Shown here: in pieces, positions 1 through 17,398 of the stretch
How the letters are laid out: the number at the start of each line of letters is the position of its first letter
Position numbering within the stretch: position 1 is the first letter of the stretch
IMG/VR virus record: IMGVR_UViG_3300025890_000013
Location: 1 to 22,922 of that record
Length of the DNA stretch: 22,922 nucleotides
Source: a virus
Reading direction: 5' to 3' (one strand)
Translations under genes and position numbers: made by a program
Notes under the pieces: generated by a model
What the model saw: only the letters and a program-made list of their open reading frames with translations
What the model was told of the DNA's origin: nothing
Database searches by the model: none

Positions 1-99
1 CGTTATGCTTTCGAGTATCTCAAAGGTTGAATAGTATTGATTAACTCCGTTGCTGTCTGGGTTGCCTAGCGATGGATTATAAATTCGCGTATCAATCAA
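1..99. repeat. Terminal direct repeat, copy 1. It is identical to 22824..22922 and is read as a circular-assembly overlap.
   Basis: Base-by-base comparison shows that 1..99 equals 22824..22922. The repeat lies inside a coding sequence, and joining the ends keeps the reading frame open. Confidence 0.9.
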
Positions 100-660
100 T
101 TGGTTGCTTCCCGTGTAATCCACCGCGTCAAAGTCATTGACGTAATACAAAAAGTTGTCCGTACTCCAAAGGTGTGTCGCCCGTGTGCGGTTCAAACATT
201 GCAGCAGCAGCGTCGGCACATCTACCAAGCCCGTCGAATCGTGCTTAACATATTGCAAATTACCAAGGTCGTCGGCTGCTGTTAGGGTGTTCTGGATCGG
301 CTGGTAATCGTATGGCCGTGTGACCTGCTCCGGATACAATACCCCAAACCAATACTTTGAATTCACCCCGTCCGGATCTTTGTACACGCTTACCGAAAAC
401 CGTAGTTCGGGCGTTGTGGTGAGCAGGTCCATAAAGGTTGTATGTATGCTGGTTTGTTCGGTAAGTGTGAACGTTAATTCACTACCGATAACGCCCTGCA
501 TCCGGTCTTCATTGTTGCCGGTGTATGTCAATACGAAGCCATCGGCACCGAGCTTAAACGTGCCCGCCGTGCCGGTAAAATCTGCATCGTGAATATTCAC
601 CCGATAGTCCGTGCCAAGGTCATCGGTAAATTCTGCGTATAGTCGTATTGGATCAGCCAT
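1..660 (-). CDS. Tail-tip protein (Dit/Tal-like by position), 5' portion. The gene wraps across the contig junction and continues as 22823..21165, for 772 aa in total.
   Basis: ATG at 660..658 overlaps the TMP stop (ATGA). Hand translation gives MADPIRLYAEFTDDLGTDYRVNIHDADFTGTAGTFKLGADGFVLTYTGNNEDRMQGVIGSELTFTL...DYTGSNQLIDTRIYNPSLGN, with no stop down to position 1. The codon at 99..97 is the TTG that the ORF track shows as the first residue of ORF 21165..22922. The gene is missing from the ORF track because it runs off the window edge. Confidence 0.8.
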   Translation of the reverse strand, partial: MADPIRLYAEFTDDLGTDYRVNIHDADFTGTAGTFKLGADGFVLTYTGNNEDRMQGVIGSELTFTLTEQTSIHTTFMDLLTTTPELRFSVSVYKDPDGVNSKYWFGVLYPEQVTRPYDYQPIQNTLTAADDLGNLQYVKHDSTGLVDVPTLLLQCLNRTRATHLWSTDNFLYYVNDFDAVDYTGSNQLIDTRIYNPSLGNPDSNGVNQYYSTFEILESIT

Positions 661-2696
661 CAGAATCCCCTTACTCGGTTTCGGTCGATTGCATTTCGCT
701 CACTGGTTAGAAGTATATCGCGGCCTGAAATCTTGCCGGTCACCTGTACGCTTTGCCCGCCCATCATGCTCTGCAATTTATCTAGCGGTGCAATCACTTC
801 AGGGTTATGCTGTGCGCCTGAGTACTCACCGACCTGCGCAATGACTGGCCCGCTTACGATGCCACCGCTGGCCATCTGTGGAATGCCAAAGCCGCCGCCT
901 ATAAACTTACCGAGTCCGCCCTTTACTAAACTACTGGCGGGCATAAGCACGGATAGAATGGCGAATTGAGCAATGAGCGAAGCCAGCTGTATTAACATCT
1001 GCTTTATCATATTTCGCATGACTTCCTCGAACGTTGCCGTGCCGTCAATGATGCTTCTGAATGTGCTGTCGATAAAGTTCGCCATGCTTTGCGCGATGCT
1101 GTTGATTTGGTTCTTTACAAGGTTCGTGCGCTCGATTACCTTATCAATATCCTCTTCGTCAAGATCTGCATCGTCTATAAATTCAATATCCTGAAATTCG
1201 AGATCAGCCTGCACGGTTACGGTTTCGGTTGGTGTTGGTGTTACCGTAGCACCTGCACCGCCGCCGTCTGATGCATTGAAATTTAGGTCAGGAATTAGAT
1301 TGCTAAAGAATCCTACAACTTTATCCTTTGTTTTATCAAGGTCTTCTGTAGTTACAAACTCAACAGGATCTTTTGTTTTAGCGTCCTCAATTGCCTCAAC
1401 AAAGCCATCATAAACATCCGCGCCCGCTTTCGCAGTGTCCTCTACAATTGTTTTGAAACCTTCTGTAAGTACGTCGCCCGCTGCCGCAAAGCCATCAGTA
1501 AAGGCGGTTTTTATAGCCTTAAACAACAAAGCAAATGCATCAACCACATTTAAGACCTGCCGTTTAACAATTGTAAACGCTGCAACAAATGCCTGTTTGA
1601 AAACTGCAACCGCAATCCGCAGTCCTTCGCTTTCGTTGTACATTGAGATTATAGCATTGATTGCATTGGCTAAAGGCTTCTTGACATCATCCCAAAAATA
1701 AAAGAACGCCGCAACCAATCCAGCAATAGCCAACACGACTAAACCAATTGGTGAAGTCATCGCGCCCCACATTTTCATTAATTGCTTTGGTAAGGTTTTA
1801 CCTACAAAACTGCCCAGCAGCATAAACCCCTTTAATAATGACGGCAGTATGATAAGCAACGGGCCAAGCGCCGCCGCAATACCTGCACCGATTACCATAA
1901 ATCTCTTAACCGCTGGGCTGAGGTTTTGGAATGTCGCCAGCATATTCTTTAGGCCATCAATGACCGGCGGCAGAAACTCCATTATAATCTTACCGAATTC
2001 CTCCTGCAAATCACCGAATGAATTGGCTAGCTGCTTCAGCCCACCCGTGCCGGCCTTCGCTGCGGCTTCTGCGGATCCTCCGTATTGCTTTTCCAGTTCG
2101 TCAAGTATAACGGTTTGAGCCTCGGCAAGCCTACCGGATTCCGTCAGGCTTTTAATTACTTGCTTTTGGTCTTCGCTGAACTGAATGCCCGACCGGCTTA
2201 AAGCGCTCAGGTTTGCAATCGGATCGTTCAACGCTTTACCCAATTGAATCGATGCGCTTTTTAGATCGCCATCTAATCGCGTGGCAAGATCCAAAGCAAC
2301 GGACTGCGTGCGGGCAAACTGATCGCCGGCAATGTTCGTAAACGTCAGCAGCTGCGAAGTTGCATCCTTTAATATTTCCTCATCCCCGAATATGGTTTTC
2401 GTTTGCAGGTCGCTGGCCATCTGCTGCAACTGCTTAGAAGTATATCCAACGGTTGAACCGGTGGACTTCAAACCCGCCTCGACCTGTGCAATTGCTTTGG
2501 CCTGCTGGTCGAATGCTTTTACTGCTGTAAAGCCAAGCGCCGCAATCGGTGCGGTCAGCCCCATGGTCATGGACTTGCCGAGCTTCTTGGTGTTCATACC
2601 AAAGCGCTGCATCTTTTTCATAGATGAGCCAAGCGCCTTATCAAATTGCTTTGTTTGCGCTCCTATCGTTACGATTAAATCGTTCAGCTTTGCCAT
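660..2696 (-). CDS. Tape measure protein (678 aa)
   Basis: It is among the longest ORFs and lies directly after the G/GT chaperone pair. It has an alpha-helical Ala/Gln/Lys-rich N-terminal half and central hydrophobic segments (LSPAVKRFMVIGAGIAAALGPLLIILPSLL; IGLVVLAIAGLVAAFFYF). The C-terminal GEYSGAQHNPEVIAPLDKL motif is typical of TMP C-termini. Confidence 0.85.
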   Translation of the reverse strand: MAKLNDLIVTIGAQTKQFDKALGSSMKKMQRFGMNTKKLGKSMTMGLTAPIAALGFTAVKAFDQQAKAIAQVEAGLKSTGSTVGYTSKQLQQMASDLQTKTIFGDEEILKDATSQLLTFTNIAGDQFARTQSVALDLATRLDGDLKSASIQLGKALNDPIANLSALSRSGIQFSEDQKQVIKSLTESGRLAEAQTVILDELEKQYGGSAEAAAKAGTGGLKQLANSFGDLQEEFGKIIMEFLPPVIDGLKNMLATFQNLSPAVKRFMVIGAGIAAALGPLLIILPSLLKGFMLLGSFVGKTLPKQLMKMWGAMTSPIGLVVLAIAGLVAAFFYFWDDVKKPLANAINAIISMYNESEGLRIAVAVFKQAFVAAFTIVKRQVLNVVDAFALLFKAIKTAFTDGFAAAGDVLTEGFKTIVEDTAKAGADVYDGFVEAIEDAKTKDPVEFVTTEDLDKTKDKVVGFFSNLIPDLNFNASDGGGAGATVTPTPTETVTVQADLEFQDIEFIDDADLDEEDIDKVIERTNLVKNQINSIAQSMANFIDSTFRSIIDGTATFEEVMRNMIKQMLIQLASLIAQFAILSVLMPASSLVKGGLGKFIGGGFGIPQMASGGIVSGPVIAQVGEYSGAQHNPEVIAPLDKLQSMMGGQSVQVTGKISGRDILLTSERNAIDRNRVRGF

Positions 2697-3306
2697 TGGT
2701 CTCTTTCTAGTATTCGCTGCCTAAGTTCTTCCTTGTTAAACTTACCGGCCTTGGCCTTTGGTTTCTCCCATGGAAATAGCATCAGGTCCTTTGGCTGCAA
2801 TTTACGCCCTTTTTTTAGGTGGGGCTGCATGATCATAGAACCGAGCCACCGCGTGCGCTCCCACTCCATCCGCTCCCGTATCTCTTCGCTCTCTCGGTTG
2901 GCGTCAAGTGCTAGGCTGACTTCGCCGAATGTCATTGACCAAAACGCAGAAGGGGATAGGCGCAGTATGCCCATCCCCATCCGTATAATATCCGGCCAGC
3001 CAATCGGCTTGTCTGTGCCGTCTATGCTTTTTTTTCGCTGCTATATTCGCCGAGTGCGTCAAAGCATTGGGTGACGTGTTCCAGCGTTATGTGATCTTCG
3101 AACGTCATCAAATCCATATCGAAGTCCTGACCTTCAAAGCTGCATCCACATTCAACGCCGACGAAGCAAAGGTAGGCGCAGGCGTCTGCGCTCAGCTTTG
3201 ACGGATCGGATAGGCTGAACACATTGACCTTGGTCTTACGTTCAAACTTCTTCAGCGCCTTCATGCTGTACCGCACTGGGTACTCCGTGCCGTTTACTTC
3301 AATCAT
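2684..3306 (-). CDS. Tail assembly chaperone G-T fusion made by a programmed -1 frameshift (about 207 aa)
   Basis: The -1 frame is open from the slippery site (SIDGTDKPIGWPDIIR) into the 98-aa ORF 2684..2980 (MGMGILRLSPSAFWSMTFGEVSLAL...). The LxLxPxxFWxMTxxE motif resembles the chaperone-T segments of GTA/HK97-like tail clusters (rcc01693-like, from memory). Confidence 0.6.
3022..3306 (-). CDS. Tail assembly chaperone, gpG-like (94 aa)
   Basis: Small acidic ORF between the major tail protein and the TMP. Its ATG overlaps the MTP stop (ATGA at 3303..3306). It ends two codons after an A8 slippery run. Confidence 0.7.
   Translation of the reverse strand: MIEVNGTEYPVRYSMKALKKFERKTKVNVFSLSDPSKLSADACAYLCFVGVECGCSFEGQDFDMDLMTFEDHITLEHVTQCFDALGEYSSEKKA
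3028..3035 (-). promoter_or_regulatory. -1 programmed ribosomal frameshift slippery site, A AAA AAA (G)
   Basis: The minus strand reads gaA AAA AAA gca TAG. This is an X XXY YYZ heptamer in the zero frame of the gpG-like ORF, 2 codons before its stop. A -1 slip reads through into the downstream ORF. Confidence 0.6.
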
Positions 3307-3716
3307 TCAGCTGTCTGTGTAATTGCACCGGTCAATTCGAAAGTAGCTGAATAGGTTGCTGTGTCTTCTGTGCCACCTGACTGCTCAAGGCTAGTAATAA
3401 AACCGCTGGCGCTATAATTGAAATCTTCTCCAACGACTGGAGTAGCTTTCGCAAACTTTAAAGCCAAAGCCGTGCGATTGTCCAAGGCTGTAAACAGATC
3501 GGAAACGTCTTTGTTTGCACTGTCGTTGTAATCAATCAAACCGCTGACGCTGATTGATCCAGACTTTACACCACCGAGCAGTTCACGAAATCCCGCGCTG
3601 TCCTTTGTAGTGATGTCAATCGTTTCCATGTTTAAGGAAATCGAGCAATCTGTGGCCGCTGCGATCAGCGTGCTATCAATGTAAACTCCTAGTTCTGTAC
3701 CGTTAAAAATGGCCAT
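3303..3716 (-). CDS. Major tail (tube) protein (137 aa)
   Basis: Position is immediately upstream of the G/GT chaperones. The sequence MAIFNGTELGVYIDSTLIAAATDCSISLNMETIDITTKDSAGFRELLGGVKSGSISVSGL resembles small TP901-1/phi13-type major tail proteins. Confidence 0.75.
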   Translation of the reverse strand: MAIFNGTELGVYIDSTLIAAATDCSISLNMETIDITTKDSAGFRELLGGVKSGSISVSGLIDYNDSANKDVSDLFTALDNRTALALKFAKATPVVGEDFNYSASGFITSLEQSGGTEDTATYSATFELTGAITQTAE

Positions 3717-3717
3717 T

Positions 3718-3885
3718 TTATTCTTCTATTAAATCGTTATTATCTGAGTCCGTTTTTTTCTTTGGGGCGTCGAGGTATCCTTTTGCTTTTAGTTCTGCGG
3801 CAAAGTCAGAAGTAACTGACGGCGTTGCGCCTTTCTTCCAGTTGTTACCGCGTAGCTTGCACGCCTTTTGAATTGTGACCTTCAT
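3718..3885 (-). CDS. Hypothetical small Lys-rich protein (55 aa, below the ORF-track cut-off)
   Basis: Hand translation gives MKVTIQKACKLRGNNWKKGATPSVTSDFAAELKAKGYLDAPKKKTDSDNNDLIEE. It fills the only gap between 3895 and the MTP start, and its stop TAA lies 1 nt before the MTP ATG. Confidence 0.45.
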   Translation of the reverse strand: MKVTIQKACKLRGNNWKKGATPSVTSDFAAELKAKGYLDAPKKKTDSDNNDLIEE

Positions 3886-3894
3886 GGCTGCAAG

Positions 3895-4299
3895 TTAATC
3901 AATTTCAGGTTGATCTGGAAACCAACCATTTTCCTCCATGTATTCCTGTGTTCGGATCGTTGTATCGCTCGGCACGATATGGCCGAACGGGAACTTCTGA
4001 TTCACTTGCACGTAACTGCTAAGGCTGTACCGCTCATCGTTCGAAAGCTCAGGGAAGCAAGCAACGAGGCGTTCGAGCGTTGCCGCTGGGTGTACGTTTA
4101 TAAGATACTCGGTATCCACTTGCAACGCGTTCTGTACTCCGTCAGGGTGTACCACGATACCGAACACGGCAGAATCTACTTCCCACTCTGCTTGGATGAG
4201 AACGGGGCGAGAGATGTTGTACAGCTCGCGGGTGATTTGCTTTGCCCGTGCTTCGCTTGTCTGCGTGGGCGTAGGTAGTACTATGATATATCCGTTCAT
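3895..4299 (-). CDS. Hypothetical protein (134 aa). Its position suggests a possible fibre assembly or accessory factor.
   Basis: Its ATG overlaps the stop of the 938-aa fibre gene (TAATG). I recognised no motif. Confidence 0.6.
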   Translation of the reverse strand: MNGYIIVLPTPTQTSEARAKQITRELYNISRPVLIQAEWEVDSAVFGIVVHPDGVQNALQVDTEYLINVHPAATLERLVACFPELSNDERYSLSSYVQVNQKFPFGHIVPSDTTIRTQEYMEENGWFPDQPEID

Positions 4300-7115
4300 T
4301 AGAAGATGTCGTAAAACGTGTTGATGTTGGATTCGATGTTCGTGCGGTTGCTAGATTGGTCGGAGGTGTAGATAATGATTTCTTGCGTGTCCATCATGGC
4401 ATAATTAAACGACCCATCTTGAAAACCGAGGCAAAAACCAGTCGTTCCAAACGAAAAATCTGCATCAATAAAATATAAATTCTGTCCGTTTATATCAGTC
4501 CATAAATCTGTTCGAGTTGTGGGGTATGACCAACTTGAACCATTTTTATGAGCTGAATTTATTGTTACGTTGTCTAGAATTGGGTAGTTCGGTGAGCTTT
4601 GTGCGGAAGCAAAAAAGTTGTCGGTATTTCTGTTGCCTATCCAAGTCGTCGCGTTTGTAGCAAATGAATTTATTGGGCGTGTATGATTCATAATGACAGT
4701 TCGGTCTCCGCCCGTAGTTATGTCGTATGCGCTACGCATTGACGCGTTCGTTGTTACTTTTCTTAATACTGGCTTTCCATTCTCTGTTTCAACACCGTCT
4801 GTACCGTCATATATCTTTGGCATTTGCCCCGTAGTAGTTTGTGTCAAATCGTTCGAGCCTGCTTGGTCATACCACTTCGACACGAACCCGTCGTTGCTTC
4901 CACAGTGAGCCGCCAGTGCAACCGTATCCAACTCACCGAATACATTGAACCCTATATCCGCGTAGCTGCTCCCGTTGTAAACCTCTACCGCGTCACCTGT
5001 GTATGCCGTGCGCATCAGTCGCAAAGAATAGCAAGCCGCCGCACCTGAATACGTGTCGAGCAGTGGCGTGTTTTGGGTGAAGTAGTCGCCTATGTTGGAT
5101 TCGATGGACGCTATTGGGTTAGTAGATGACGCTGGATAAAAAATTAATTCCTGCGAATTGTACATCCGATAAGTTGAATTCCCACCGTAAGAATTTTGAA
5201 CGGTTGAACCCTGAAAATTCAAATCTATATCAGCGTAAAAAAGACGCCTCATTGAGAAGTCGTCATATAAATTATTGCGAGTTCCAATAGTATACGAGTT
5301 TCCGTCTAATCGTGATGAAGACAACGTAAAACCTGCACCGCTACCGCTACTATTGTTACCATCTACCGCTATTAGGAAAAAATCGTTTGCATTTTCGCTT
5401 CCCAAAAAAACGTGGGGGGCGTGGGATTGCATAACGCTGAAAATCTTGTATGCGTCGGTCGATGTTATTGGTATGTCAAACGCCTCCTCTGTTGCATCTG
5501 CGGTAATCATTGCTTTACCGTTATCCTTCACAATCGCCCCACCCGTGTAAATCGTAGGTTCTTGTCCGCTTTGCGCCGTCGCTGTATTTCCGTTTCCTGA
5601 TTGGTCCAGCCACTGATACACCGTGCAAGTCGTGCCCGTGCAGAACGAAATAATATCAGCCTCCGATATGTTGCCTGAACCGTCAAAGCCGATTGTTGTG
5701 GTCGTGCTATCCGATGCCCTGCGAATCACCATGCAGTCCGTTACGTTGCCATTCAATCGACGGGTTGAATAAGCCGCCTCGGCTCCGCTGCCATACGTCT
5801 CGTTTAACAAGCCCGTGAACGCGGGTGCGGCTGTTACCTCCTCCCACGATTGCGCTAAGGTAAACGGCGGCACGCCATAGGTTGCGCCGTCTTCGAATGC
5901 GTCAAACACGGCAACCGTATCCGCGTATGCTGTATCGTCCGCGAAGGTGTGAATTAGTGTATAGTCGCCTATTACATCGTCGTCACTGATGAAGCCCGTT
6001 TTGTGGTAAATCTTTCTTTTGATAACCTTGCCGGCTGTTGGTGTATCGGGCGAAGCGTCTATAAAAATTCCGTCGCCTTCTGACTTGACACTATACCCGC
6101 GTTCAAAATAAACACTAGGCATTTGCAAACCCGTTTCAACCTCATCTTCGAATCGGTTCGTATAACTCACCAACGATTTGAATGCGCCGGCTGTGGCGTC
6201 GTATATAAGCGCCTGATTACCTGCCGGCGTGCCAACGATTGTAACGTCGCTCAAGTCGTTTAAATCCGTAGGTACGGCGCTTGTATCGGCCTTGGCGTTT
6301 AGCGCTGTTTGCGTGGCTGTACTTACCGGCTTATCCGCGTCGCTGGTATTGTCGACGTTGCTAAAATCTGCGCTGTTTGCCTTGGCGCTTAGTGCCGTTT
6401 GCGTGGCCGTGCTTACCGGCTTCGCTGCGTCGCTGGTGTTGTCTACATTGCCTAACCCCACTTCGCTTTTAACGATGCTGTCGTTTGTCCATTCGCTGCC
6501 GTCGTACTTTAGAAGCTCGCCCGTTTCCGGTCCGCCCTGTCCAAATTGTACATCTGTCAATTGCCCCAACTCCGTCACGCCGCCCGCGTCGTCTGCCGGT
6601 TGCCATTCCTGTACCGATGCATCGTAGGCAAGTACCTGCCCATCTGTTACGCCTGATACGTCAACGTCGTACAGGTCGCCAATCTTTGCACCCGTTACCG
6701 GTGTACCCTGCGCTATTGTAAAATCATCGCGCTTTATTCGAAATGTAAACGTTAGCACTTGAGCAAAGCGGCGTGGCGCGTCAATGGTGTCTATGTCTAC
6801 GTCATTGAATTGTACGCTCTCCACGTTCACGCCGTTGTATGTGCCGCTAACACGATCCAATGCACCGCGTACTTTGTCGCCTAGATCAGCAGCCAGCGCA
6901 TAGGTATCCGCATAGCAAAGGAATTCAAAGCGTACTTCGTCCAGCTTACTTGGCCCGTCGTGCGTGTCTTCCGGCGCTACGCTTTGCAACTGATAAACGA
7001 TGAACGGCGTGGCCGTTTCCTGCTCTGCTACCTCTGGAAATACTTTGACCCCAACAATGTCGGTGACGTCTGTGTTTTGCGTCAGTATTACGTACGCGGC
7101 TATTCCTGCATTCAT
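4299..7115 (-). CDS. Fusion of a tail-terminator-like (DUF3168-like) N-terminal domain to a fibre (938 aa)
   Basis: It occupies the slot after the gp10-like gene and before the MTP, where tail terminators sit. Residues 1-130 (MNAGIAAYVILTQNTDVTDIVGVKVFPEVAEQETATPFIVYQLQS...VRFEFLCYADTY) look DUF3168-like. Residues 147-312 carry three LxDVxxxxGQxLxYDxxxxxW motifs and two NVDNTSDAxKPVSTATQTALxAKA tail-fibre repeats. Residues 436-684 and 685-938 are two paralogous modules of about 250 aa. Confidence 0.7.
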   Translation of the reverse strand: MNAGIAAYVILTQNTDVTDIVGVKVFPEVAEQETATPFIVYQLQSVAPEDTHDGPSKLDEVRFEFLCYADTYALAADLGDKVRGALDRVSGTYNGVNVESVQFNDVDIDTIDAPRRFAQVLTFTFRIKRDDFTIAQGTPVTGAKIGDLYDVDVSGVTDGQVLAYDASVQEWQPADDAGGVTELGQLTDVQFGQGGPETGELLKYDGSEWTNDSIVKSEVGLGNVDNTSDAAKPVSTATQTALSAKANSADFSNVDNTSDADKPVSTATQTALNAKADTSAVPTDLNDLSDVTIVGTPAGNQALIYDATAGAFKSLVSYTNRFEDEVETGLQMPSVYFERGYSVKSEGDGIFIDASPDTPTAGKVIKRKIYHKTGFISDDDVIGDYTLIHTFADDTAYADTVAVFDAFEDGATYGVPPFTLAQSWEEVTAAPAFTGLLNETYGSGAEAAYSTRRLNGNVTDCMVIRRASDSTTTTIGFDGSGNISEADIISFCTGTTCTVYQWLDQSGNGNTATAQSGQEPTIYTGGAIVKDNGKAMITADATEEAFDIPITSTDAYKIFSVMQSHAPHVFLGSENANDFFLIAVDGNNSSGSGAGFTLSSSRLDGNSYTIGTRNNLYDDFSMRRLFYADIDLNFQGSTVQNSYGGNSTYRMYNSQELIFYPASSTNPIASIESNIGDYFTQNTPLLDTYSGAAACYSLRLMRTAYTGDAVEVYNGSSYADIGFNVFGELDTVALAAHCGSNDGFVSKWYDQAGSNDLTQTTTGQMPKIYDGTDGVETENGKPVLRKVTTNASMRSAYDITTGGDRTVIMNHTRPINSFATNATTWIGNRNTDNFFASAQSSPNYPILDNVTINSAHKNGSSWSYPTTRTDLWTDINGQNLYFIDADFSFGTTGFCLGFQDGSFNYAMMDTQEIIIYTSDQSSNRTNIESNINTFYDIF
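6289..6449. repeat. Two 71-nt direct repeats with 90-nt periodicity inside the fibre gene
   Basis: 6289..6359 (gccttggcgtttagcgctgtttgcgtggctgtacttaccggc...) and 6379..6449 (gccttggcgcttagtgccgtttgcgtggccgtgcttaccggc...) are about 85% identical. They encode the NVDNTSDAxKPVSTATQTAL repeat. Confidence 0.85.
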
Positions 7116-7636
7116 TTCTTTTTTCCTTTTGCTTTCGCTGCTTTGCGAATTTGAAACTCGTATTTTTTGCGCATCTTCGTGAGCGCCTCGCCCCGCTTGT
7201 TTGCAATCGACCGAGTAAATACGCCTTTGTTTCGGTTGTTGCCTTTTACATACTGGTCATCACCTTCCACGATGTTAGCAAACCATCCATCCCCGTCTTT
7301 TGGTGCGCGTTTACCAGCACGCGGCCCAACCCAGTAAGTGCTTTTCTGTTTATCAATGAGCCAAACCTTAATTGATCGGCGCAGCGTACCCGCCTTAATA
7401 TCAAAGCCACCTTTACCACCTCGACGGATCCGAATAGTTTCGCGCGCGTCGACAATGTTGTTCAGCATCTCATCCTTGTAAATCTTACCTACTGCGCGAT
7501 GAATCTGCTTTTGTATTTTTGGATTGCTAACCTGTTTGCGCATCTGCTCAAATTGTTTCATCAGCGGCTTTATGTCTGCGCCGATTCCTTCAAAGCCAAC
7601 CTTACCTCCTTTCTGCTCAAGTGATCCCTGTGCCAT
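7112..7636 (-). CDS. HK97 gp10-like neck/tail-component protein (174 aa)
   Basis: It lies between the head-closure gene and the terminator-like gene. It has a GTLRRSIKVW...VGP...WFANIVEGD pattern like the HK97-gp10 family and a basic C-terminus. ATGA coupling to the next gene at 7112..7115. Confidence 0.6.
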   Translation of the reverse strand: MAQGSLEQKGGKVGFEGIGADIKPLMKQFEQMRKQVSNPKIQKQIHRAVGKIYKDEMLNNIVDARETIRIRRGGKGGFDIKAGTLRRSIKVWLIDKQKSTYWVGPRAGKRAPKDGDGWFANIVEGDDQYVKGNNRNKGVFTRSIANKRGEALTKMRKKYEFQIRKAAKAKGKKK

Positions 7637-7967
7637 GTGTTCCCGTTATTTCGCAAAGTAGAATAAGCTGGTCATTGCGCCCAACTTCCTCAATGCCTTG
7701 GATGGTGTAAGTGTTGCTGTTGTAGATAACGCGGTCCGCTGGATTTATTGCCCGCGTGTCCGTGCTGCTGCGGATCTTAAACCGTAGCCGCTGCACCGGC
7801 ATATCCTGATCGCCGGTAAGCTTTTCGGCCATGCCTTCGCCGGCCTTCATCAGTTCAGCCCATACGGTCACCAACGTAGACCATGACGGCACGCGCTCAC
7901 CGTAGGCGTTGGTGCTGGTAGTGTAGTTCTGCACCTCGATTCGTCGGTCGCTTTGTCCTATCCTCAT
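7617..7967 (-). CDS. Head-closure / head-tail joining protein, SPP1 gp16-like (116 aa)
   Basis: I take the start at the ATG at 7967, which overlaps the upstream stop (ATGA). MRIGQSDRRIEVQNYTTSTNAYGERVPSWSTLVTVWAELM...RLRFKIRSS...RVIYNSNTYTIQGIEEV fits the Phage_H_T_join pattern. The longer track ORF (to 8084) overlaps the upstream gene. Confidence 0.7.
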   Translation of the reverse strand: MRIGQSDRRIEVQNYTTSTNAYGERVPSWSTLVTVWAELMKAGEGMAEKLTGDQDMPVQRLRFKIRSSTDTRAINPADRVIYNSNTYTIQGIEEVGRNDQLILLCEITGTHGTGIT

Positions 7968-8530
7968 ACTGAAGTGATAACGCGGTAAGGGTTTAAGATA
8001 GCGTACAGGCCAAGCGGTAACGTGGTTGCAATCGTACCGGCTACGACTGGCTGCCGCTGCTCGTACAGGTGCGCCACCATCCAACGAATAGCGGTAATGA
8101 ATGGCTTTGGTATATCGGCCTCTGGGTATCCTACATTCATGTTTACCTGCACCGCGTTAAATGTGTCGTCATAAAGATCCGGCACGCTGTCAAATGTGAT
8201 CCGCGCGGCTTTGGTTTTTATATCGGCCCACCACTTAGTTGTCGCCAGCGTCTGCGTGGCGTTCGCCGTGTCCTTGTACTGCACTGAAGCAATGGAGTTG
8301 ACCGGACCAATAGGCAGACGGACGTTGTAAAAAAAATCAATGTAGCCCACGGCAGTAACATCACCGAGCCGCGTATTGCAATAATCCTCAACCCACGCAA
8401 TGGCTGCATCTCGGTAAGCTTCTATAAGTGTATCCTCGTCTGTGTGATCCACTCTCAAATGTTCTTTAAGCTGTGCCACGGTTATAATGCTGTCGAGGTC
8501 GGGCGTGCCTGTTATTTCTACGGTCATCAT
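7964..8530 (-). CDS. gp6-like head-tail connector (adaptor) protein (188 aa)
   Basis: I take the start at ATGATG 8530/8527, downstream of the capsid terminator. IITVAQLKEHLRVDHTDEDTLIEAYRDAAIAWVEDYCNTRL is the classic gp6-like N-terminal motif. Confidence 0.75.
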   Translation of the reverse strand: MMTVEITGTPDLDSIITVAQLKEHLRVDHTDEDTLIEAYRDAAIAWVEDYCNTRLGDVTAVGYIDFFYNVRLPIGPVNSIASVQYKDTANATQTLATTKWWADIKTKAARITFDSVPDLYDDTFNAVQVNMNVGYPEADIPKPFITAIRWMVAHLYEQRQPVVAGTIATTLPLGLYAILNPYRVITSV

Positions 8531-8547
8531 GTCGCTAAAATACGGAC

Positions 8548-8573
8548 AAAAAAAAGAGGGGCCGAAGCCCCTC
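8548..8573 (-). terminator. Rho-independent terminator after the major capsid gene
   Basis: The minus strand reads GAGGGGC-TTCG-GCCCCTC followed by TTTTTTTT. It lies 28 nt after the capsid stop. Confidence 0.8.
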
Positions 8574-8600
8574 CTTTCCAATGAAATAAACCTAACCAAA

Positions 8601-10499
8601 CTACTGCTGCAAAGCTGTTGCCGTTGACAAAGCTTTTGGCTGTCGCAAATCGAAGTCAAAGAATCGGTTCACGTGCAAAGCAATCTGTGCATTACCTGCG
8701 TTGCTGTAAGGGTCAATAAGCAAATCTAGCGAACCAAAATAAGCAAGAATAGCGCCCTGTGCGAAGTTTCCGAAAATCATTTGCGCGGCTGCTGTTGTGC
8801 CGTCTGCTAAGAATCCATCTACCAAGTAAGGTGTTGCAACTGCATTGTACATATTGAACTGCCCAGCATCCCACAAAGCATTCACTGCGTTTACCTGCGC
8901 CAATGCTTTCGAGTTTACGTAAGCGTTTGGACTCATAACATATGAAGCGCCTGCAAGGTTTGCACCCTGTGCAAGGGCCTGCGATTCCATGAGATTAACT
9001 GTTGCAGCTGTTAATACCGCGTCTGCGGTTTGCGTTTGATTAACGGCAGTTGAAGCCATGATAGTATCAAAGCCGTAATCATCAATGTAAGCATTCATCG
9101 CCGCGGCCAACTCGTTAGCAATAAGCGAATCAACCTCTGCACCTCCTTGCTGAATGAGGAGTTTTGAATACTTAGTATTCGCTGCAACTCGCTGAGGAGT
9201 CAAAGAAACTTCATCCATTTCCATGCCTGAACCTGCATCGGCTGAAACTTCTGTTTCATCTGTACCTGTGGCCTTCGCGCTTACACGTGGAAACTGCAAG
9301 TTGCCCGTAGCGTTTCGAATTACTGTTGTGCCGAGTCCTTCCAATACGGTAGGGGCGCGAAGTGCTTCGATTGCAGCAGGGACAACAGTTGGAACGAATC
9401 CTGAACCGTCGCCGCTTCCTGCTTGGAAGTCGTCAGTACCTCCAGCACGCAAAGCGATTGAAGGAATTGCCACCTGTCCAGCAGACTGCAAACCCTGTGA
9501 GCGCATTTCTTTAGCGGCTTCTTTTTGCCACTCTGCTTCTGCACCTTCCAAGCTGCGGCCGTTTGCAATGGCACTGATTGCACGGCTTAGGGAAAAAGAA
9601 CCGTTCACGCGCTCAACTTCGCGTTGCTCGGATGCGCCAGCTGTACCGCTCTGCGCCATTCGTGCGACCATATCCTGCTCACGTGTCTTGTGCTTGATTT
9701 TTACATCAAGGTCCTGCATCATGCCGTCAAGCTTGTCGCATCGTTCTTGTTCTGCTTCTGTCATAACGCGGCCCTCTGAGTCCGCCTTTTGGCCAATAGC
9801 TACGAATTCTTCGTAGTTCGCATTGCGCTGGCCTTTCAAATCGTTTAAAGTCATCTTAGTAATGTTTTGCGTAAAGTTACGCGGTTCTGTTTTTATCGTT
9901 GCAGGTTCTGCGCGTTCTTCCGTTTCCGGTTCTGCTGCTACCTGTTCTTCCTTCAATTCCTCCACTTCCTGCGCCGCCGCTGCCATGTTTCGCGCGTATA
10001 CTGAGGTTGTAGCTGCGGCCGGATATGTCACGGCGCTCGTGTCTAATAACCTGCCAACCTTGGTAATGGTTCGCGTGCTGCGGTCTTCGCTCCATTCGTC
10101 CGCCTCGATTGTAAAGGCAAAAGAACTTTGTGATATATCGCCGCGCTTAATCAGCTTGTAAAGATCGCGCCCGTCCTGCGTGTCGGCAAGTGCCGCGCGA
10201 TACTTCAAACCTTGCTCGTCTACGCTCAGTTCCAGCGTGCCGTTTGTAGTTCGTGCCAACGGTGCGCCGGTATGGTTAAGCAAAAATCTAACGTCGTCTT
10301 CCATGACGCCATCAAATGCGCCACGTGCTACGGTTTCTTTGAAGTATCCAAGATCATACTCTACATCAAAGTTGCTTGCATAGCCTTCGACTACCAAAGC
10401 ATCGTCGCCAGCGGCCCGCACTTCTGCCGTTCGCAGTTCTACGTTCTCACCGTACTGGCTGCGCAGCTCATCGGTGCGCTTATCTTCTTTATTGTCCAT
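8601..10499 (-). CDS. In-frame fusion of an HK97-family prohead protease and the major capsid protein (632 aa)
   Basis: Residues 30-170 carry prohead protease motifs (VVEGYASNF, RFLLNHTG, GDISQSSFAF). Residues 172-215 form an acidic linker. Residues 216-632 look like an HK97-type MCP with a coiled-coil delta region (MTLNDLKGQRNANYEEF...), then LQFPR and TKYSKLLIQQ. There is no stop between the two parts. Confidence 0.8.
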   Translation of the reverse strand: MDNKEDKRTDELRSQYGENVELRTAEVRAAGDDALVVEGYASNFDVEYDLGYFKETVARGAFDGVMEDDVRFLLNHTGAPLARTTNGTLELSVDEQGLKYRAALADTQDGRDLYKLIKRGDISQSSFAFTIEADEWSEDRSTRTITKVGRLLDTSAVTYPAAATTSVYARNMAAAAQEVEELKEEQVAAEPETEERAEPATIKTEPRNFTQNITKMTLNDLKGQRNANYEEFVAIGQKADSEGRVMTEAEQERCDKLDGMMQDLDVKIKHKTREQDMVARMAQSGTAGASEQREVERVNGSFSLSRAISAIANGRSLEGAEAEWQKEAAKEMRSQGLQSAGQVAIPSIALRAGGTDDFQAGSGDGSGFVPTVVPAAIEALRAPTVLEGLGTTVIRNATGNLQFPRVSAKATGTDETEVSADAGSGMEMDEVSLTPQRVAANTKYSKLLIQQGGAEVDSLIANELAAAMNAYIDDYGFDTIMASTAVNQTQTADAVLTAATVNLMESQALAQGANLAGASYVMSPNAYVNSKALAQVNAVNALWDAGQFNMYNAVATPYLVDGFLADGTTAAAQMIFGNFAQGAILAYFGSLDLLIDPYSNAGNAQIALHVNRFFDFDLRQPKALSTATALQQ

Positions 10500-11691
10500 T
10501 GTTCTGTGTTTCTGAAACTTTATCCGAATAAGCGCCTAGCCTATCCAGTGCAATTTGATTAACTGCAACCGTATGCGTATCGCCTCCGGCCGTTGGGTTT
10601 AGCTCTTCCTTGCCCCGTACTTCGTTAATGCTTAGCACGCCGTTGTTGAGCATCTTCGTGTAGAAGTCTGCACGGCTCTGCATATCGCCACGGTATAAAT
10701 CGTTAAGGTTAAACTTGCTGTATATCTGTGGCCGCTCGCGTGACTGGATCAGCTTGCGATCAATCTCCTGTTCGATGCGCTTGGCCCATGGTGCAATCGT
10801 GTGCCGTGCGAATTGCAGGTTTTGCTGTTCGACGTTGTTGTATGTTGTTTGGCTTTCGAGCTGTACCAATGTAGGCGGCACGCTGAAAATGCGGCATATC
10901 TCTTCCGCTTGGAATTTACGCGTTTCGATAAACTGCGCTTCGTCGGGGCTAATGCTTATCCTTGAATACTTGAATCCAAACGGCAGCAGTTTCGTGCCGG
11001 CCTGTTGTGCAGCCTTGTTCCAACTGCCTTGAATTATATCCATCTGCTCCTTTTTCAAAGGCTGGTCGCTGGATAATATCCCCGTCATTTGCCCGCCGCT
11101 TCCAAAGTATTCCGCGCCAAAGTCCTCGGCTGCTTTCGCTAGTCCTAAATTCTCACGGTGCAAACGGATGGGCGACTTCCTTTGAAGGTTGCAAATCTCC
11201 AGCATATTCTCCGCCTGCACGATGCCCACGTTTCGCACGCTGTAAACCATTTGGCCATTTACGGTCTTGCGGTCTACGTCGTAAATATCTAAGCACACCA
11301 AACTTGTAACGTACCCACGGCCATCGCGCTCGATGAGTGCATAGCCCACGCCGTTAATTACTGCATTGCTTATAATGGTTTCCCAAAAGTCGAAAGCTGT
11401 TTGGTATTCGTTGGGCTTGTATTTGATAACGTCATAAGCTGGGTGAACATTCGCGGGTTCTATCTCGCGGCCTGTGCGCTCGTATACCTCAAGATCTAAA
11501 CTGGCCAACGTGCTGGCAATCTTATACACGCAAGCGTAAACCGTGGAAATGGTTAGCGCTGTATTCTCGTTGATGTTCGCACCGCTAACCGTAGTGCCGT
11601 AAATGCCTAGGTCATTCGCCAAGGTCTGAGAATCGTACTTACCTACGCGATACCTCAAAAGCGCATTTAATCTGTCGCGAAGTGTTGCCAT
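10489..11691 (-). CDS. Portal protein, HK97 family (400 aa)
   Basis: It lies between TerL and the protease/MCP gene, and its size is typical. Matching segments include VYACVYKIASTLASL, FWETIISNAVINGVGYALIERD, SPDEAQFIETRKF and APWAKRIEQEI. Confidence 0.85.
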   Translation of the reverse strand: MATLRDRLNALLRYRVGKYDSQTLANDLGIYGTTVSGANINENTALTISTVYACVYKIASTLASLDLEVYERTGREIEPANVHPAYDVIKYKPNEYQTAFDFWETIISNAVINGVGYALIERDGRGYVTSLVCLDIYDVDRKTVNGQMVYSVRNVGIVQAENMLEICNLQRKSPIRLHRENLGLAKAAEDFGAEYFGSGGQMTGILSSDQPLKKEQMDIIQGSWNKAAQQAGTKLLPFGFKYSRISISPDEAQFIETRKFQAEEICRIFSVPPTLVQLESQTTYNNVEQQNLQFARHTIAPWAKRIEQEIDRKLIQSRERPQIYSKFNLNDLYRGDMQSRADFYTKMLNNGVLSINEVRGKEELNPTAGGDTHTVAVNQIALDRLGAYSDKVSETQNNGQ

Positions 11692-13398: not shown

Positions 13399-13753
13399 CT
13401 TTAAACGTAAGGAGCTGCTCCAGTTCGTCGTCCATTTCAACCTCGACTTCTATGCGCTTCCTTGCCGCTGGTGTCATACCTAACTCCTTCAGCACTACCA
13501 AATATTTTGATCGTGATTCAACTAGCATTTGATGCTCAGGCCGGTGCTTCGTCATCGTGCCGCCGTCACGGTTTTTGAATTCGTAGGTGTAACCTTTTTC
13601 GTCAATCAGGCTTTGCAGCTCACGGACCTCAACCGCTAGGCAGGCCGCCATTGTTAAAAGGTCTTCATCTAATTCGCCAATGTGTCGAGCGCTGCGCAGT
13701 GCGTTTTTTATGCGCTTGTATTCAAGCTTTTGCGTCTTTGTCAGTACGTCCAT
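13391..13753 (-). CDS. terS: Terminase small subunit, P27-family-like (120 aa)
   Basis: I take the start at ATG 13753 (MDVLTKTQKLEYKRIKNALRSARHIGELDEDLL...HRPEHQMLVESRSKYLVVLKELGMTPAARKRI). The track's upstream extension to 13903 overlaps the HNH gene and looks non-coding. Confidence 0.7.
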   Translation of the reverse strand: MDVLTKTQKLEYKRIKNALRSARHIGELDEDLLTMAACLAVEVRELQSLIDEKGYTYEFKNRDGGTMTKHRPEHQMLVESRSKYLVVLKELGMTPAARKRIEVEVEMDDELEQLLTFKDA

Positions 13754-13851
13754 GCTCAAAGGTAGCGCCAAAACCCAAAGAAAAAAATGAAATATTTCGC
13801 CATGGATACTACGGCGATGCAGGCGCTTTTTGCTCAGGTTTTTGCAGGGGG

Positions 13852-14133
13852 CTACCCCCCGTGGGCCTCGCGCCCTGATTTGCTTGCGTGGCATGGTGTG
13901 CATAGGCTCTGCCAGTTGCTTACATCGAAGAACTCGGCCCCTTGACGTACTGGAATGACGTGATCCACCACGTTAGCAGGCCCGCCGCATCCAGTGCATT
14001 CGGGATTGTTCTTAAGAAAGGCCAGCCGGCTCTTACGCCACGCGTTTGTCCAGTACCTGCGATCCTGTGGCGTGTCTCGCTTGCGTCCTTTGCGCCTCGG
14101 ATCGGGCGTCTGCTTGCGTGGTATCGTAGGCAT
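13852..14133 (-). CDS. HNH endonuclease (93 aa), associated with the terminase
   Basis: CTGCG...DHVIPVRQG...NWQSLCTPCHASK is a canonical HNH/zinc motif. It sits directly upstream of TerS, as in HK97-like cos phages. Confidence 0.85.
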   Translation of the reverse strand: MPTIPRKQTPDPRRKGRKRDTPQDRRYWTNAWRKSRLAFLKNNPECTGCGGPANVVDHVIPVRQGAEFFDVSNWQSLCTPCHASKSGREAHGG

Positions 14134-17244: not shown

Positions 17245-17398
17245 GGTATTCGGTTTTGATTTCGTAGCGGATCCCCTTGCTTTCGAGGTCGTCAATGTAT
17301 TTGCTTGCGCTGCCATAGTTTTCAAATTTTACGCTGCTGTTATATGCCGGTACTTTGACGCAGTAGTAAAGCCTATCAAAATGGGAAGTTTTGGCCAT
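17201..17398 (-). CDS. Hypothetical protein (65 aa)
   Basis: This ORF fills the gap between the DUF3127-like gene and the HTH gene. Its 3' end overlaps the HTH ORF by 44 nt, so its boundaries are uncertain. Confidence 0.4.
   Translation of the reverse strand: MAKTSHFDRLYYCVKVPAYNSSVKFENYGSASKYIDDLESKGIRYEIKTEYHESQRVYKATLHNN

What the first reader, a model, noticed from the sequence alone, without database searches (positions are those of the whole stretch)
4299..7115. Tail-terminator-like domain fused to an 800-aa fibre/lectin-like extension
The gene sits in the syntenic slot of the tail terminator, in the order gp6-like, head closure, gp10-like, this gene, then major tail protein. It starts with about 130 aa that look DUF3168/terminator-like, then continues without a stop for about 800 more residues. 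Those residues include three LxDV...GQxLxYD...W motifs, two NVDNTSDAxKPVSTATQTAL tail-fibre repeats and two paralogous C-terminal modules. Terminators are normally small ring-forming proteins at the head-proximal end of the tail. A fusion would put fibres at the neck (a collar or whisker structure) as part of the terminator itself. The genome also has only one gene after the tape measure, so this protein may carry much of the host-recognition function. This is my best candidate for something undescribed in the window.
Basis: partly seen in the sequence, partly recalled or inferred. Interest (0 to 1): 0.7.

Follow-up and report, generated by a model that had tools for sequence, protein, structure and literature searches.

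The report
Tail terminator fused to a lectin-tipped fibre
In a 22.8-kb uncultured marine phage, the small ring protein that caps the tail next to the head carries an 800-residue fibre ending in two sugar-binding-type domains whose cores are swapped between near-identical phages. This points to a host- or surface-binding device built into the neck, which I found described nowhere.

Summary
Window 4299-7115 (minus strand) is one uninterrupted 938-aa gene in the tail-terminator slot of a complete, circularly assembled 22,823-bp siphophage genome.

- **N-terminal domain:** aa 1-130 pass Pfam Tail_completion_gp17/DUF3168. The model superposes on solved terminators (RcGTA, T5 p142, lambda gpU, SPP1 gp17).
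- **Extension:** a conserved linker, a stalk with tail-fibre motifs, a compact middle domain and two paralogous ConA/LamG-like (GH54-N-like) beta-sandwich modules.
- **Not an artefact:** 379 IMG/VR contigs encode relatives. All 52 complete ORFs examined run 661-1201 aa without a stop.
- **Variable cores:** the centre of each module (aa 534-669 and 772-916) is hypervariable. A phage 91-95% identical in DNA elsewhere shares no similarity there.
- **Mobile cassette:** the fibre and the downstream 134-aa gene also occur on a diverged terminator domain (41% identity) and, in an unrelated 25-kb phage, on a different N-terminal domain.
- **Wider pattern:** among the 146 closest terminator-domain representatives that keep a near-full domain, 83 carry C-terminal extensions and 17 carry N-terminal extensions or insertions.

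Best reading: a hexameric terminator ring displaying six covalently attached adhesin arms at the head-tail junction. Virion location and ligand are inferred, not shown. No cultured phage or paper with this architecture was found.

The parts
6726..7115 (-). aa 1-130: tail-terminator (Tail_completion_gp17/DUF3168) domain
   Evidence: PF11367 at 34.7 bits against a 24.5 cut-off, and phrog_347 'tail terminator'. AF2 pLDDT 75-88. Foldseek hits to RcGTA 6TBA_4A (TM 0.73), T5 p142, lambda gpU and SPP1 gp17. BFVD models at TM 0.83-0.88. Family-conserved residues P27, P37, D59, R83, D87 and R126 are shared with standalone terminators.
6675..6725 (-). aa 131-147: conserved linker FxIAQG(T/S)P(V/I)TGxxLG(D/E)L. 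It is the recombination junction between terminator domain and fibre.
   Evidence: The linker is conserved across terminator-domain classes of 90%, 70% and 40% identity. Invariant columns I134, A135, G137, P139, T141, G142, G146. No slippery heptamer.
6156..6674 (-). aa 148-320: fibre stalk with three LxDV...YD...W hairpin motifs and two NVDNTSDAxKPVSTATQTAL repeats
   Evidence: Motif coordinates. Several PHROG tail-fibre and minor-tail families match aa 156-290. tblastn hits to annotated tail-fibre and minor-tail genes of cultured phages. Monomer pLDDT is below 50.
5811..6155 (-). aa 321-435: compact alpha/beta middle domain of unknown family
   Evidence: AF2 pLDDT 75-88. 60-73% conserved in relatives. 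No Pfam, PDB or NCBIfam sequence match.
5064..5810 (-). aa 436-684: ConA/LamG-like beta-sandwich module A, with a GH54-N-like conserved frame
   Evidence: PF09206 on aa 444-558. Profile hit to GH54 structures 1WD3/6SXR residues 16-89. Foldseek hit to GH54 at E = 3e-8. Paralogous to module B.
5109..5514 (-). aa ~534-669: hypervariable core cassette of module A
   Evidence: ~11-20% identity and ~3 bits entropy across 60 homologs. No DNA similarity to L022, which is 88-91% identical in the flanks. Only 1 of 119 homologs shares it.
4302..5063 (-). aa 685-938: ConA/LamG-like beta-sandwich module B
   Evidence: 28% identity to module A, E = 2e-17. tblastn hit to the Synechococcus phage S-CBS4 'virion structural protein'.
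4367..4800 (-). aa ~772-916: hypervariable core cassette of module B
   Evidence: ~9-14% identity. No DNA similarity to L022. None of 119 homologs shares it above 33% identity.
3895..4299 (-). 134-aa ORF translationally coupled to the fibre gene. It travels with the fibre and is a candidate assembly chaperone or accessory subunit.
   Evidence: TAATG overlap. 59-99% identity in all 11 long loci, including those with a different neck/tail module. A 62%-identical copy lies directly downstream of the fibre in the unrelated phage L001. No family hit.
7112..7636 (-). HK97 gp10-like gene immediately upstream, a putative partner at the head-tail joint
   Evidence: PF04883, weak, E = 0.015. Its identity across relatives changes together with that of the terminator domain (33% when the terminator domain is 41%).
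3303..3716 (-). Major tail (tube) protein, the ring that the terminator domain would cap
   Evidence: PF06199 E = 1.5e-15 and phrog_1407. Co-varies with the terminator domain (36-39% identity in the loci where the terminator domain is 41%).

Best explanation
This is a genuine, conserved 'decorated' tail terminator.

- **Ring (inferred from homology):** aa 1-130 fold as a canonical terminator subunit. By homology it forms the hexameric ring that caps the tail tube and docks onto the head-completion/gp10-like proteins.
- **Arms (inferred):** a conserved linker leads each of the six chains out of the ring into an ~800-aa arm made of a fibre stalk, a compact middle domain and two tandem ConA/LamG-type beta-sandwich modules.
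- **Binding (inferred):** the centres of these modules are interchangeable hypervariable cassettes that most likely bind surface polysaccharide. The virion would then carry adhesin arms at the head-tail junction for reversible first contact with cell-surface or extracellular glycans. The 772-aa tail-tip protein would handle irreversible binding and DNA delivery.
- **Accessory gene (inferred):** the co-inherited 134-aa gene is probably an assembly factor or accessory subunit.

Shown here: the fusion, the fold, the synteny, the conservation pattern and the cassette exchange. Inferred: ring formation, the neck location of the arms, the oligomeric state (six single arms or two trimers) and glycan binding.
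For: - **Fold and family:** Pfam PF11367 above its cut-off and phrog_347. Foldseek to solved terminators and to predicted tail completion proteins at TM 0.83-0.88.
- **Synteny:** the gene sits exactly between the gp10-like gene and the tube-protein region. No other terminator candidate exists. The 134-aa and 55-aa ORFs have no hits, and hhalign of the 134-aa family against the terminator domain is negative.
- **Same constraints as standalone terminators:** the conserved residues are identical in both forms.
- **Co-variation with partners:** in four relatives the terminator domain falls to 41% identity together with the head completion protein (43%), gp10-like (33%), tube protein (37%) and chaperone (27%). 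The stalk stays at 87% and the 134-aa ORF at 61-90%.
- **Fusion is real:** 379 IMG/VR contigs encode relatives. 52 of 52 complete ORFs are continuous. More than 100 proteins carry both Pfam domains.
- **Adhesin signature:** lectin-type beta-sandwiches with two hypervariable cores. Sharp DNA-level replacement in a 91-95% identical genome. The cassettes are almost unique. Module number varies from one to three.
- **General pattern:** other terminator-domain proteins carry LamG_3, pentaxin, Lcl_C, fn3 or BclA_C domains, or CBM-like insertions.
Against: - There is no virion image, proteomics or binding data, and no cultured relative.
- The stalk and the variable cores are modelled with low confidence (pLDDT below 50). 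The oligomeric state and the exit direction from the ring are therefore unknown.
- Tail-fibre-type stalks are usually trimeric, while the ring is expected to be hexameric.
- The same fibre occurs on a non-terminator N-domain in another phage. The fibre itself is therefore not neck-specific.
- From the TMP length (678 aa) the tail should be about 100 nm. This estimate rests on my own knowledge of ~0.15 nm per residue. A neck fibre is unlikely to reach the tail tip, which makes a role in final receptor engagement less obvious.
- The post-TMP protein is also mosaic.
Confidence: 0.62

Rival explanations
1. Polyprotein or cleaved precursor. The fusion is translated as one chain, but the conserved linker (IAQGTPVTG) is a processing site. 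The mature virion would then have an ordinary small terminator, and the released fibre would attach elsewhere, for example to the 772-aa tail-tip protein.
For: - The linker is unusually conserved across diverged terminator domains.
- The same fibre works with a different N-terminal domain in another phage.
- The genome encodes an S78 prohead protease fused to the capsid protein.
Against: - Linker conservation is equally explained by its role as a recombination junction.
- No known cleavage motif or autoproteolytic domain was detected.
- A released fibre would lack any recognisable attachment domain.
- Other family members place lectin modules directly after the terminator domain, or insert them inside it. 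Cleavage cannot explain those.
Confidence: 0.1
2. Repurposed anchor. The N-domain has a terminator fold but no longer terminates the tube. It only serves to attach the fibre somewhere on the tail, and an unrecognised protein such as the 134-aa or 55-aa ORF is the real terminator.
For: - Two unannotated small ORFs sit between this gene and the tube protein gene.
- The 134-aa ORF has terminator-like size.
Against: - The 134-aa ORF travels with the fibre, not with the neck/tail module (61-90% where the tail module is ~27-43%). It also follows the fibre in an unrelated phage.
- hhalign of the 134-aa family against the terminator domain is negative.
- The N-domain keeps the residues conserved in standalone terminators and co-varies with the tube and connector proteins.
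Confidence: 0.1
3. The C-terminal modules are glycoside hydrolases (GH54-like depolymerases) that degrade capsule or exopolysaccharide, rather than lectins.
For: - PF09206 (GH54 catalytic domain) is above its cut-off.
- Profile and fold hits to arabinofuranosidase B structures.
- Some cultured-phage homologs are annotated 'alpha-L-arabinofuranosidase'.
Against: - Sequence similarity covers only profile positions 11-129 of 315, that is chain residues 16-89.
- The rest of each module is hypervariable, with no invariant residue between aa 531-655 or 783-911 in 60 homologs. A family-wide catalytic site is therefore excluded.
- Some variants match Laminin_G_3 in that stretch.
- The CBM42 arabinose-binding domain of GH54 enzymes was not detected.
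Confidence: 0.12
4. Assembly or gene-calling artefact that joins a small terminator gene to a fibre gene.
For: One relative (L003, P0036) has a truncated 549-aa version. That contig also has a split terminase, so it looks error-prone.
Against: - 52 of 52 complete ORFs in independent assemblies are continuous.
- 379 IMG/VR contigs and over 100 distinct proteins show the architecture at 45-100% identity.
- The junction residues are invariant.
Confidence: 0.01

Closest known systems
Canonical siphophage tail terminators (lambda gpU, SPP1 gp17, T5 p142, RcGTA and roseophage R4C terminators; Pfam PF11367)
   Same: Fold, conserved residues, gene position between the gp10-like gene and the tube protein gene, and the expected hexameric ring that caps the tube and docks the head (PMC11784142, PMC10276861).
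   Different: Those proteins are 120-170 aa and single-domain. This one carries an extra ~800 aa of fibre and lectin-type modules. PMC11784142 mentions larger terminators only for extra domains that contact the myophage sheath.
Lactococcal neck passage structure (NPS, 'collar-whiskers') of 936-group and TP901-1 phages
   Same: Fibres at the head-tail junction ending in carbohydrate-binding modules. Modular and variable C-termini behind a conserved N-terminus. Ancillary host binding (PMC6669499).
   Different: NPS is a separate, non-essential protein. Its N-terminus is a BppU-like beta-sandwich predicted to form an 18-mer collar with six trimeric coiled-coil fibres. Here the anchor is the essential terminator itself, so at most six chains are present. 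The stalk has beta-type fibre motifs, and the host is unknown (marine).
'Evolved' Dit proteins and major-tail-protein extensions (TpeX) carrying CBMs
   Same: The same design principle: a hexameric tail-ring protein covalently decorated with a carbohydrate-binding module (PMC6669499).
   Different: Those decorate the distal tail ring or the tube rings. Here it is the head-proximal terminator ring, and the decoration is a long fibre with two modules.
T4 fibritin (Wac) and other myophage collar whiskers
   Same: Fibres radiating from the neck with swappable C-terminal domains (PMC3797505; own knowledge).
   Different: Fibritin is a separate trimeric coiled-coil protein bound to the neck proteins. 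It acts mainly in long-tail-fibre assembly and retraction. It shows no similarity to this protein.
GH54 alpha-L-arabinofuranosidase B catalytic domain (PF09206; PDB 1WD3, 6SXR)
   Same: The first ~75-120 residues of each module share a sequence motif and the beta-sandwich fold.
   Different: The remainder is hypervariable with no conserved catalytic residues, and there is no CBM42 domain.

Membership tests
Tail terminator / Tail_completion_gp17 (PF11367, DUF3168) | Sequence match to the family model above the curated threshold | tested here: met
   34.7 bits against a 24.5 cut-off, aa 10-127 covering profile positions 6-123 of 124. phrog_347 'tail terminator' at E = 4.7e-15.
Tail terminator / Tail_completion_gp17 (PF11367, DUF3168) | Terminator fold (beta-sheet core with peripheral helices) matching solved terminators | tested here: met
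   Foldseek: 6TBA_4A TM 0.73, 4ACV 0.75, T5 p142 0.63, lambda gpU 0.60-0.62, SPP1 gp17 0.54. BFVD tail completion protein models at TM 0.83-0.88, rmsd 2.0-2.5 A. Domain pLDDT 75-88.
Tail terminator / Tail_completion_gp17 (PF11367, DUF3168) | Gene position between the head-tail joining genes and the major tail protein gene | tested here: met
   Order is gp6-like, head completion protein, gp10-like, this gene, (134 aa, 55 aa), major tail protein. The order is the same in relatives.
Tail terminator / Tail_completion_gp17 (PF11367, DUF3168) | Small single-domain protein (~120-170 aa) | tested here: not met
   938 aa. Relatives are 661-1201 aa. Standalone 128-135-aa members of the same subfamily exist.
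Tail terminator / Tail_completion_gp17 (PF11367, DUF3168) | Forms a hexameric ring that caps the tube and binds the head | not testable with these tools
   Only indirect evidence: co-variation with tube, chaperone, gp10-like and head completion proteins, and conserved core residues.
GH54 alpha-L-arabinofuranosidase | Full-length catalytic domain match | tested here: not met
   Only profile positions 11-129 of 315 are matched. The PDB profile hit covers chain residues 16-89 only.
GH54 alpha-L-arabinofuranosidase | Conserved catalytic acid and nucleophile residues | tested here: not met
   No invariant or near-invariant column between aa 531-655 or 783-911 in 60 homologs. This excludes a family-wide active site in that stretch. 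Individual cassette types were not examined.
Concanavalin A-like lectin/glucanase superfamily (LamG_3 type) | Beta-sandwich fold or family model match | tested here: inconclusive
   PF09206 matches the window protein. PF13385 is recorded or scored only in relatives (P0007, P0016, P0046, P0085, P0113), not in the window protein at E <= 0.1. The fold match to the GH54 sandwich has E = 3e-8 but a poor global superposition. That both Pfam families belong to the same ConA-like clan is from my own knowledge.
Lactococcal NPS (collar-whisker) proteins | BppU-like N-terminal beta-sandwich followed by a trimeric coiled coil | tested here: not met
   The N-terminus is a terminator domain. The model predicts no long helices in the stalk. 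The NPS features are taken from PMC6669499.
Phage tail fibre proteins | Fibre repeat motifs shared with annotated tail fibres | tested here: met
   Tail-fibre and minor-tail PHROGs, together with several function-unknown families, match aa 156-290. tblastn hits to tail-fibre and minor-tail genes of Arthrobacter, Gordonia, Tsukamurella, Bdellovibrio and Synechococcus phages.
Phage tail fibre proteins | Trimeric assembly | not testable with these tools
   Only a monomer could be folded, and the stalk pLDDT is below 50.

The most novel reading that the evidence does not exclude
'Evolved terminators' would be a widespread, unrecognised class. In them the head-proximal tail ring, not only the tail tip, is a platform for host or particle recognition.

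In these minimal ~23-kb marine siphophages, which have a single post-TMP gene, the neck fibre would be a primary host-range determinant. It would be exchanged as a two-gene cassette (fibre plus 134-aa gene) even between unrelated phage backbones. This implies neck-first or side-on adsorption to capsule, exopolysaccharide or marine gel particles before the tail tip engages.
Probability: 0.3. Interest if true: 0.75.

Novelty: new variant of a known kind. Interest (0 to 1): 0.62.

Why it matters
Terminators are treated as small, invariant assembly parts. The host-recognition machinery of siphophages is looked for after the tape-measure gene.

This family shows that the terminator ring can carry the most variable, adhesin-like part of the virion. 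That matters in three ways.

- **Annotation and host prediction:** receptor-binding candidates inside the 'connector' block would be missed.
- **Marine phage ecology:** a large uncultured clade of very small siphophages carries hyper-diverse lectin cassettes.
- **Engineering:** a conserved linker marks a natural graft point for displaying binding modules on a hexameric ring.

The cassette swapping between near-isogenic genomes also gives a clean natural experiment for mapping specificity, once a host is found.

Tried and rejected
- **Self-BLAST of the whole protein** gave nothing useful. Segment-against-segment BLAST was needed.
- **Word-indexed homolog search with the 135-aa N-domain** returned only 15 mostly truncated proteins. 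The exhaustive HMMER search was informative instead.
- **Structure prediction of the 134-aa ORF** failed (pLDDT 42, shallow alignment). No fold search was done on it.
- **The alternative N-terminal domain of the class-2 fibre** (P0077 aa 1-175) gave no Pfam, PHROG, NCBIfam or PDB hit. hhalign against the terminator domain was negative, but that profile has Neff 1. Its nature stays unknown.
- **PDB sequence searches** with the stalk plus middle domain, and with the two modules as a single sequence, found nothing.
- **Search of GTDB species genomes** found only two MAG contigs (Pontimonas, Pirellulaceae), probably binned phage DNA. This gave no host clue and no prophage.
- **A programmed frameshift producing a short terminator** was considered. 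There is no in-frame slippery heptamer near aa 120-150.
- **A DGR as the source of hypervariability** was considered. The Pfam scans of the ORFs tested returned no reverse-transcriptase domain, and the variable blocks are replaced wholesale rather than mutated at scattered sites.
- **The truncated 549-aa relative** (L003) was set aside as an error-prone assembly, because its terminase is also split.


Full report
**Context.** The window begins and ends with the same 99 nt (1-99 = 22824-22922). It is therefore a circularly assembled, complete genome of 22,823 bp. All genes are on the minus strand, in this order:

| Gene | Window coordinates |
|---|---|
| HNH endonuclease | 13852-14133 |
| Small terminase | 13391-13903 |
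| Large terminase | 11707-13440 |
| Portal | 10489-11691 |
| S78 protease fused to HK97-type capsid protein | 8601-10499 |
| gp6-like adaptor | 7964-8659 |
| Head completion protein | 7617-8084 |
| HK97 gp10-like protein | 7112-7636 |
| Target gene | 4299-7115 |
| 134-aa ORF | 3895-4299 |
| 55-aa ORF | 3718-3885 |
| Major tail protein | 3303-3716 |
| Two chaperone ORFs | 3022-3306 and 2684-2980 |
| Tape measure protein | 660-2696 |

A single 772-aa post-TMP gene starts at 660 and wraps around the ends to 21165. That protein has no Pfam or PHROG hit. The rest of the genome encodes an M15 peptidase, a phosphoesterase and replication genes. The Pfam scans of the ORFs tested returned no integrase, and there is no tRNA.

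**Observation check.** The 938-aa ORF is uninterrupted and translationally coupled to both neighbours (ATGA and TAATG overlaps).
- aa 10-127 match Pfam Tail_completion_gp17 (the former DUF3168) above its curated threshold, and phrog_347 'tail terminator'.
- The LxDV...YD...W motifs (aa 148-171, 186-209, 288-312) and the two NVDNTSDAxKPVSTATQTAL repeats (aa 223-242, 253-272) are present.
- The two C-terminal modules are true paralogs: 28% identity over 261 aa, E = 2e-17.

**The N-terminal domain is a terminator.** An AlphaFold2 model built on 60 homologs has pLDDT 75-88 over aa 1-130.
- Foldseek against the PDB returns solved tail terminators and their tailocin equivalents: RcGTA 6TBA chain 4A (TM 0.73), Listeria antigen B (0.75), T5 p142 (0.63), lambda gpU (0.60-0.62), SPP1 gp17 (0.54), Mu, pyocin R2 collar and Bxb1.
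- Against predicted viral structures it matches 'tail completion protein' models at TM 0.83-0.88 and rmsd 2.0-2.5 A.
- The residues conserved in standalone relatives (P27, P37, D59, R83, D87, R126 and others) are equally conserved in the extended forms.
- No other ORF in the genome resembles a terminator.

**The fusion is real and old.**
- More than 100 distinct metagenomic proteins carry both Pfam domains, mostly on contigs of 22-24 kb.
- 379 IMG/VR contigs encode a relative.
- In the 80 loci fetched, all 52 complete ORFs that start with the terminator domain run on for 661-1201 aa. These lengths fit one, two or three C-terminal modules.
- The terminator domains of these proteins fall into classes of about 90%, 70-80% and 40% identity to the window. 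All join the fibre through the same linker, FxIAQG(T/S)P(V/I)TGxxLG(D/E)LxDV.
- There is no slippery heptamer at the junction.

Misassembly, a masked frameshift and a recent accidental fusion are therefore excluded.

**Anatomy of the extension.**
- **Stalk (aa 148-320).** It matches several PHROG tail-fibre and minor-tail families, and annotated fibre genes of cultured phages. It is modelled with low confidence as a monomer.
- **Middle domain (aa 321-435).** It folds confidently (pLDDT 75-88) into a compact alpha/beta domain with no known relatives.
- **Modules (aa 436-684 and 685-938).** Each begins with a conserved ~100-aa frame whose motif (AAYSxRxL...RRxSDxTTxxIGF...FC...C.V..WxDQSGNGN) also occurs at the start of the GH54 arabinofuranosidase beta-sandwich. 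Each ends with a QExIxY...IExNI strand.
- **Fold assignment.** In some relatives the stretch in between scores as Laminin_G_3. Each module is therefore one ConA/LamG-type sandwich. That PF09206 and PF13385 share a clan is my own knowledge.

**Hypervariable, exchangeable cores.** Across 60 full-length homologs, identity to the window is 54-85% in every 30-residue block up to aa 540 and 66-85% over aa 661-780. It falls to 9-20% (about 3 bits entropy, many indels) in aa 541-660 and 781-900.
- The contig L022 is 91-95% identical in DNA over nearly all aligned genes. At the protein level it is 95-100% identical in most genes, including the terminator domain (99%) and the post-TMP protein (94-96%).
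- L022 shows no detectable similarity at 5109-5514 (aa 534-669) and 4367-4800 (aa 772-916), with sharp boundaries.
- Only one of the 119 closest homologs shares the window's module-A core. None shares the module-B core.
- Weak cross-hits between A-position and B-position cores show that they are diverged versions of the same structural piece.

This is the pattern expected of a ligand-binding surface under diversifying selection and cassette exchange. It also argues against a conserved enzyme active site, because no invariant column exists in these stretches.

**A mobile two-gene cassette.**
- In four relatives (L024, L033, L048, L052) the whole neck/tail module is different: terminator domain 41%, head completion protein 43%, gp10-like 33%, tube protein 37%, chaperone 27%. 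The stalk is still 87% identical, and the downstream 134-aa ORF is 89-90% identical in three of them and 61% in L033.
- The terminator domain therefore evolves with its presumed structural partners, while the fibre recombines in at the linker.
- A third, unrelated phage type (L001, L002, L071; 25-kb contig; different terminase and capsid genes) carries the same fibre from aa ~145 onwards (44% identity). It also has a 62%-identical copy of the 134-aa gene directly downstream, but a different ~200-aa N-terminal domain of unknown family.
- The 134-aa protein is very abundant and conserved (298 hits at E <= 0.001; the 120 listed are 77-98% identical) and has no known family. Its structure could not be predicted.

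**Decorated terminators are common in this subfamily.** An exhaustive HMMER search with aa 1-135 found 2,749 representative proteins. Of the best 150, 146 kept a near-full domain:

| Architecture | Count |
|---|---|
| Standalone (<= 165 aa) | 46 |
| C-terminal extension | 83 |
| N-terminal extension or insertion | 17 |

- The extensions include this fibre, other long fibres with classic tail-fibre repeats, and a single LamG-type module attached directly to the terminator (~390 aa).
- They also include CBM-like repeats inserted after the first helix of the terminator domain.
- Pfam finds LamG_3, pentaxin, Lcl_C, fn3 and BclA_C among them.
- On a neighbour-joining tree of the domain, at least 13 switches between standalone and extended forms are needed.
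- This sample is biased towards relatives of the query. It says nothing about PF11367 as a whole.
- A gut phage contig with a similar small genome layout has an ordinary 133-aa terminator.

**Most likely mechanism.**
- **Shown:** a terminator-fold domain under terminator-like constraints is covalently followed by a fibre with two hypervariable lectin-type modules.
- **Inferred from what is established for lambda gpU, SPP1 gp17, T5 p142 and R4C (PMC11784142, PMC10276861):** six copies cap the tube when it reaches the length set by the tape measure, and they provide the docking surface for the head.
- **Inferred further:** the linker leaves the ring at its periphery, so six arms radiate from the head-tail junction, either singly or as two trimers. 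The modules then bind surface or extracellular polysaccharide reversibly, increasing encounter and dwell time. The 772-aa tip protein, itself mosaic, triggers infection.
- **Geometry:** from my own rule of thumb of 0.15 nm per TMP residue, the tail is about 100 nm. The arms probably cannot reach the tip. This favours binding to extended structures (capsule, exopolysaccharide, gels) or side-on landing.

**Rivals.**
- **Cleavage at the conserved linker.** It would free the fibre and is not excluded (confidence 0.10).
- **Repurposed anchor with a hidden true terminator.** It is disfavoured by the co-variation data and by the behaviour of the 134-aa ORF (0.10).
- **Hydrolase rather than lectin.** It is disfavoured by partial coverage and the absence of conserved residues, but it remains possible for individual cassettes (0.12).
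- **Artefact.** Refuted.

**Comparison with known systems and novelty.**
- Functionally the nearest things are the lactococcal neck passage structure and CBM-bearing 'evolved' Dit or tube proteins (PMC6669499), and myophage whiskers.
- None of these uses the terminator as the carrier. The NPS has a BppU-like anchor and is dispensable.
- The recent review-type paper on terminators notes larger terminators only for sheath-contacting domains (PMC11784142).
- Full-text searches for terminator plus fibre, collar, whisker, lectin or DUF3168 found no description of such a fusion.
- No cultured phage in the 50,697-record collection has one.

I class it as a new variant of known kinds: a terminator combined with a neck adhesin. 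It is widespread in marine viromes. Interest is moderate to high. The limits are the absence of any experimental anchor and an unknown host.

Noticed in passing
window 1-99 and 22824-22922: Exact 99-nt terminal direct repeat. The window is a circularly assembled complete genome of 22,823 bp, very small for a siphophage with a full head and tail module. Relatives cluster at 22-24 kb.
   Followed up: yes
window 1-660 joined to 21165-22922 (minus strand, across the ends): The only post-TMP gene encodes a 772-aa protein with no Pfam or PHROG match. It would have to supply the functions that Dit, Tal and a receptor-binding protein normally provide. It is mosaic between relatives: 25-45% identity in L011 and L012, whose other genes are 85-98% identical.
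   Followed up: partly
L001:6446-10605 (also L002, L071): An unrelated ~25-kb phage type carries the same fibre and 134-aa gene, on a different ~200-aa N-terminal domain with no detectable family. The gene sits next to the terminase gene and two genes upstream of a Neck1/tail-completion-like gene (186 aa).
   Followed up: partly
proteins P0219, P0246, P0254: Terminator-domain proteins in which 250-620 aa of CBM-like repeats (the ...TNGDFS...W... type) are inserted after the first helix of the terminator domain, rather than appended to its C-terminus.
   Followed up: partly
window 16197-16322: Four to five tandem 22-nt iteron-like repeats (TGTCCGTTnGCnCCCACCCCCC) inside the HTH_36/DnaD_N-like gene (15798-16514). 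Probably the replication origin within the initiator gene.
   Followed up: no
window 8601-10499: Prohead protease (Peptidase_S78) and HK97-type major capsid protein are encoded as a single 632-aa fusion, conserved in relatives.
   Followed up: partly
window 1267-1820: A ~550-nt block inside the tape measure gene shows no DNA similarity to L022, although the flanks are 91-95% identical. It is a third replaced segment besides the two fibre cassettes.
   Followed up: no
window 3718-3885: A 55-aa ORF between the 134-aa gene and the major tail protein gene is conserved. It co-varies with the neck/tail module (49-51% where the terminator domain is 41%), not with the fibre. Function unknown.
   Followed up: partly
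window 17376-18891: Replication-region genes have Bacteroidota-flavoured domains (DUF3127, BT4734-like_N). The nearest cultured terminator-domain hits are Bacteroides phages. Some database copies are binned to Marivivens, Phycisphaerae, Pirellulaceae or Pontimonas MAGs. The host remains unresolved.
   Followed up: no
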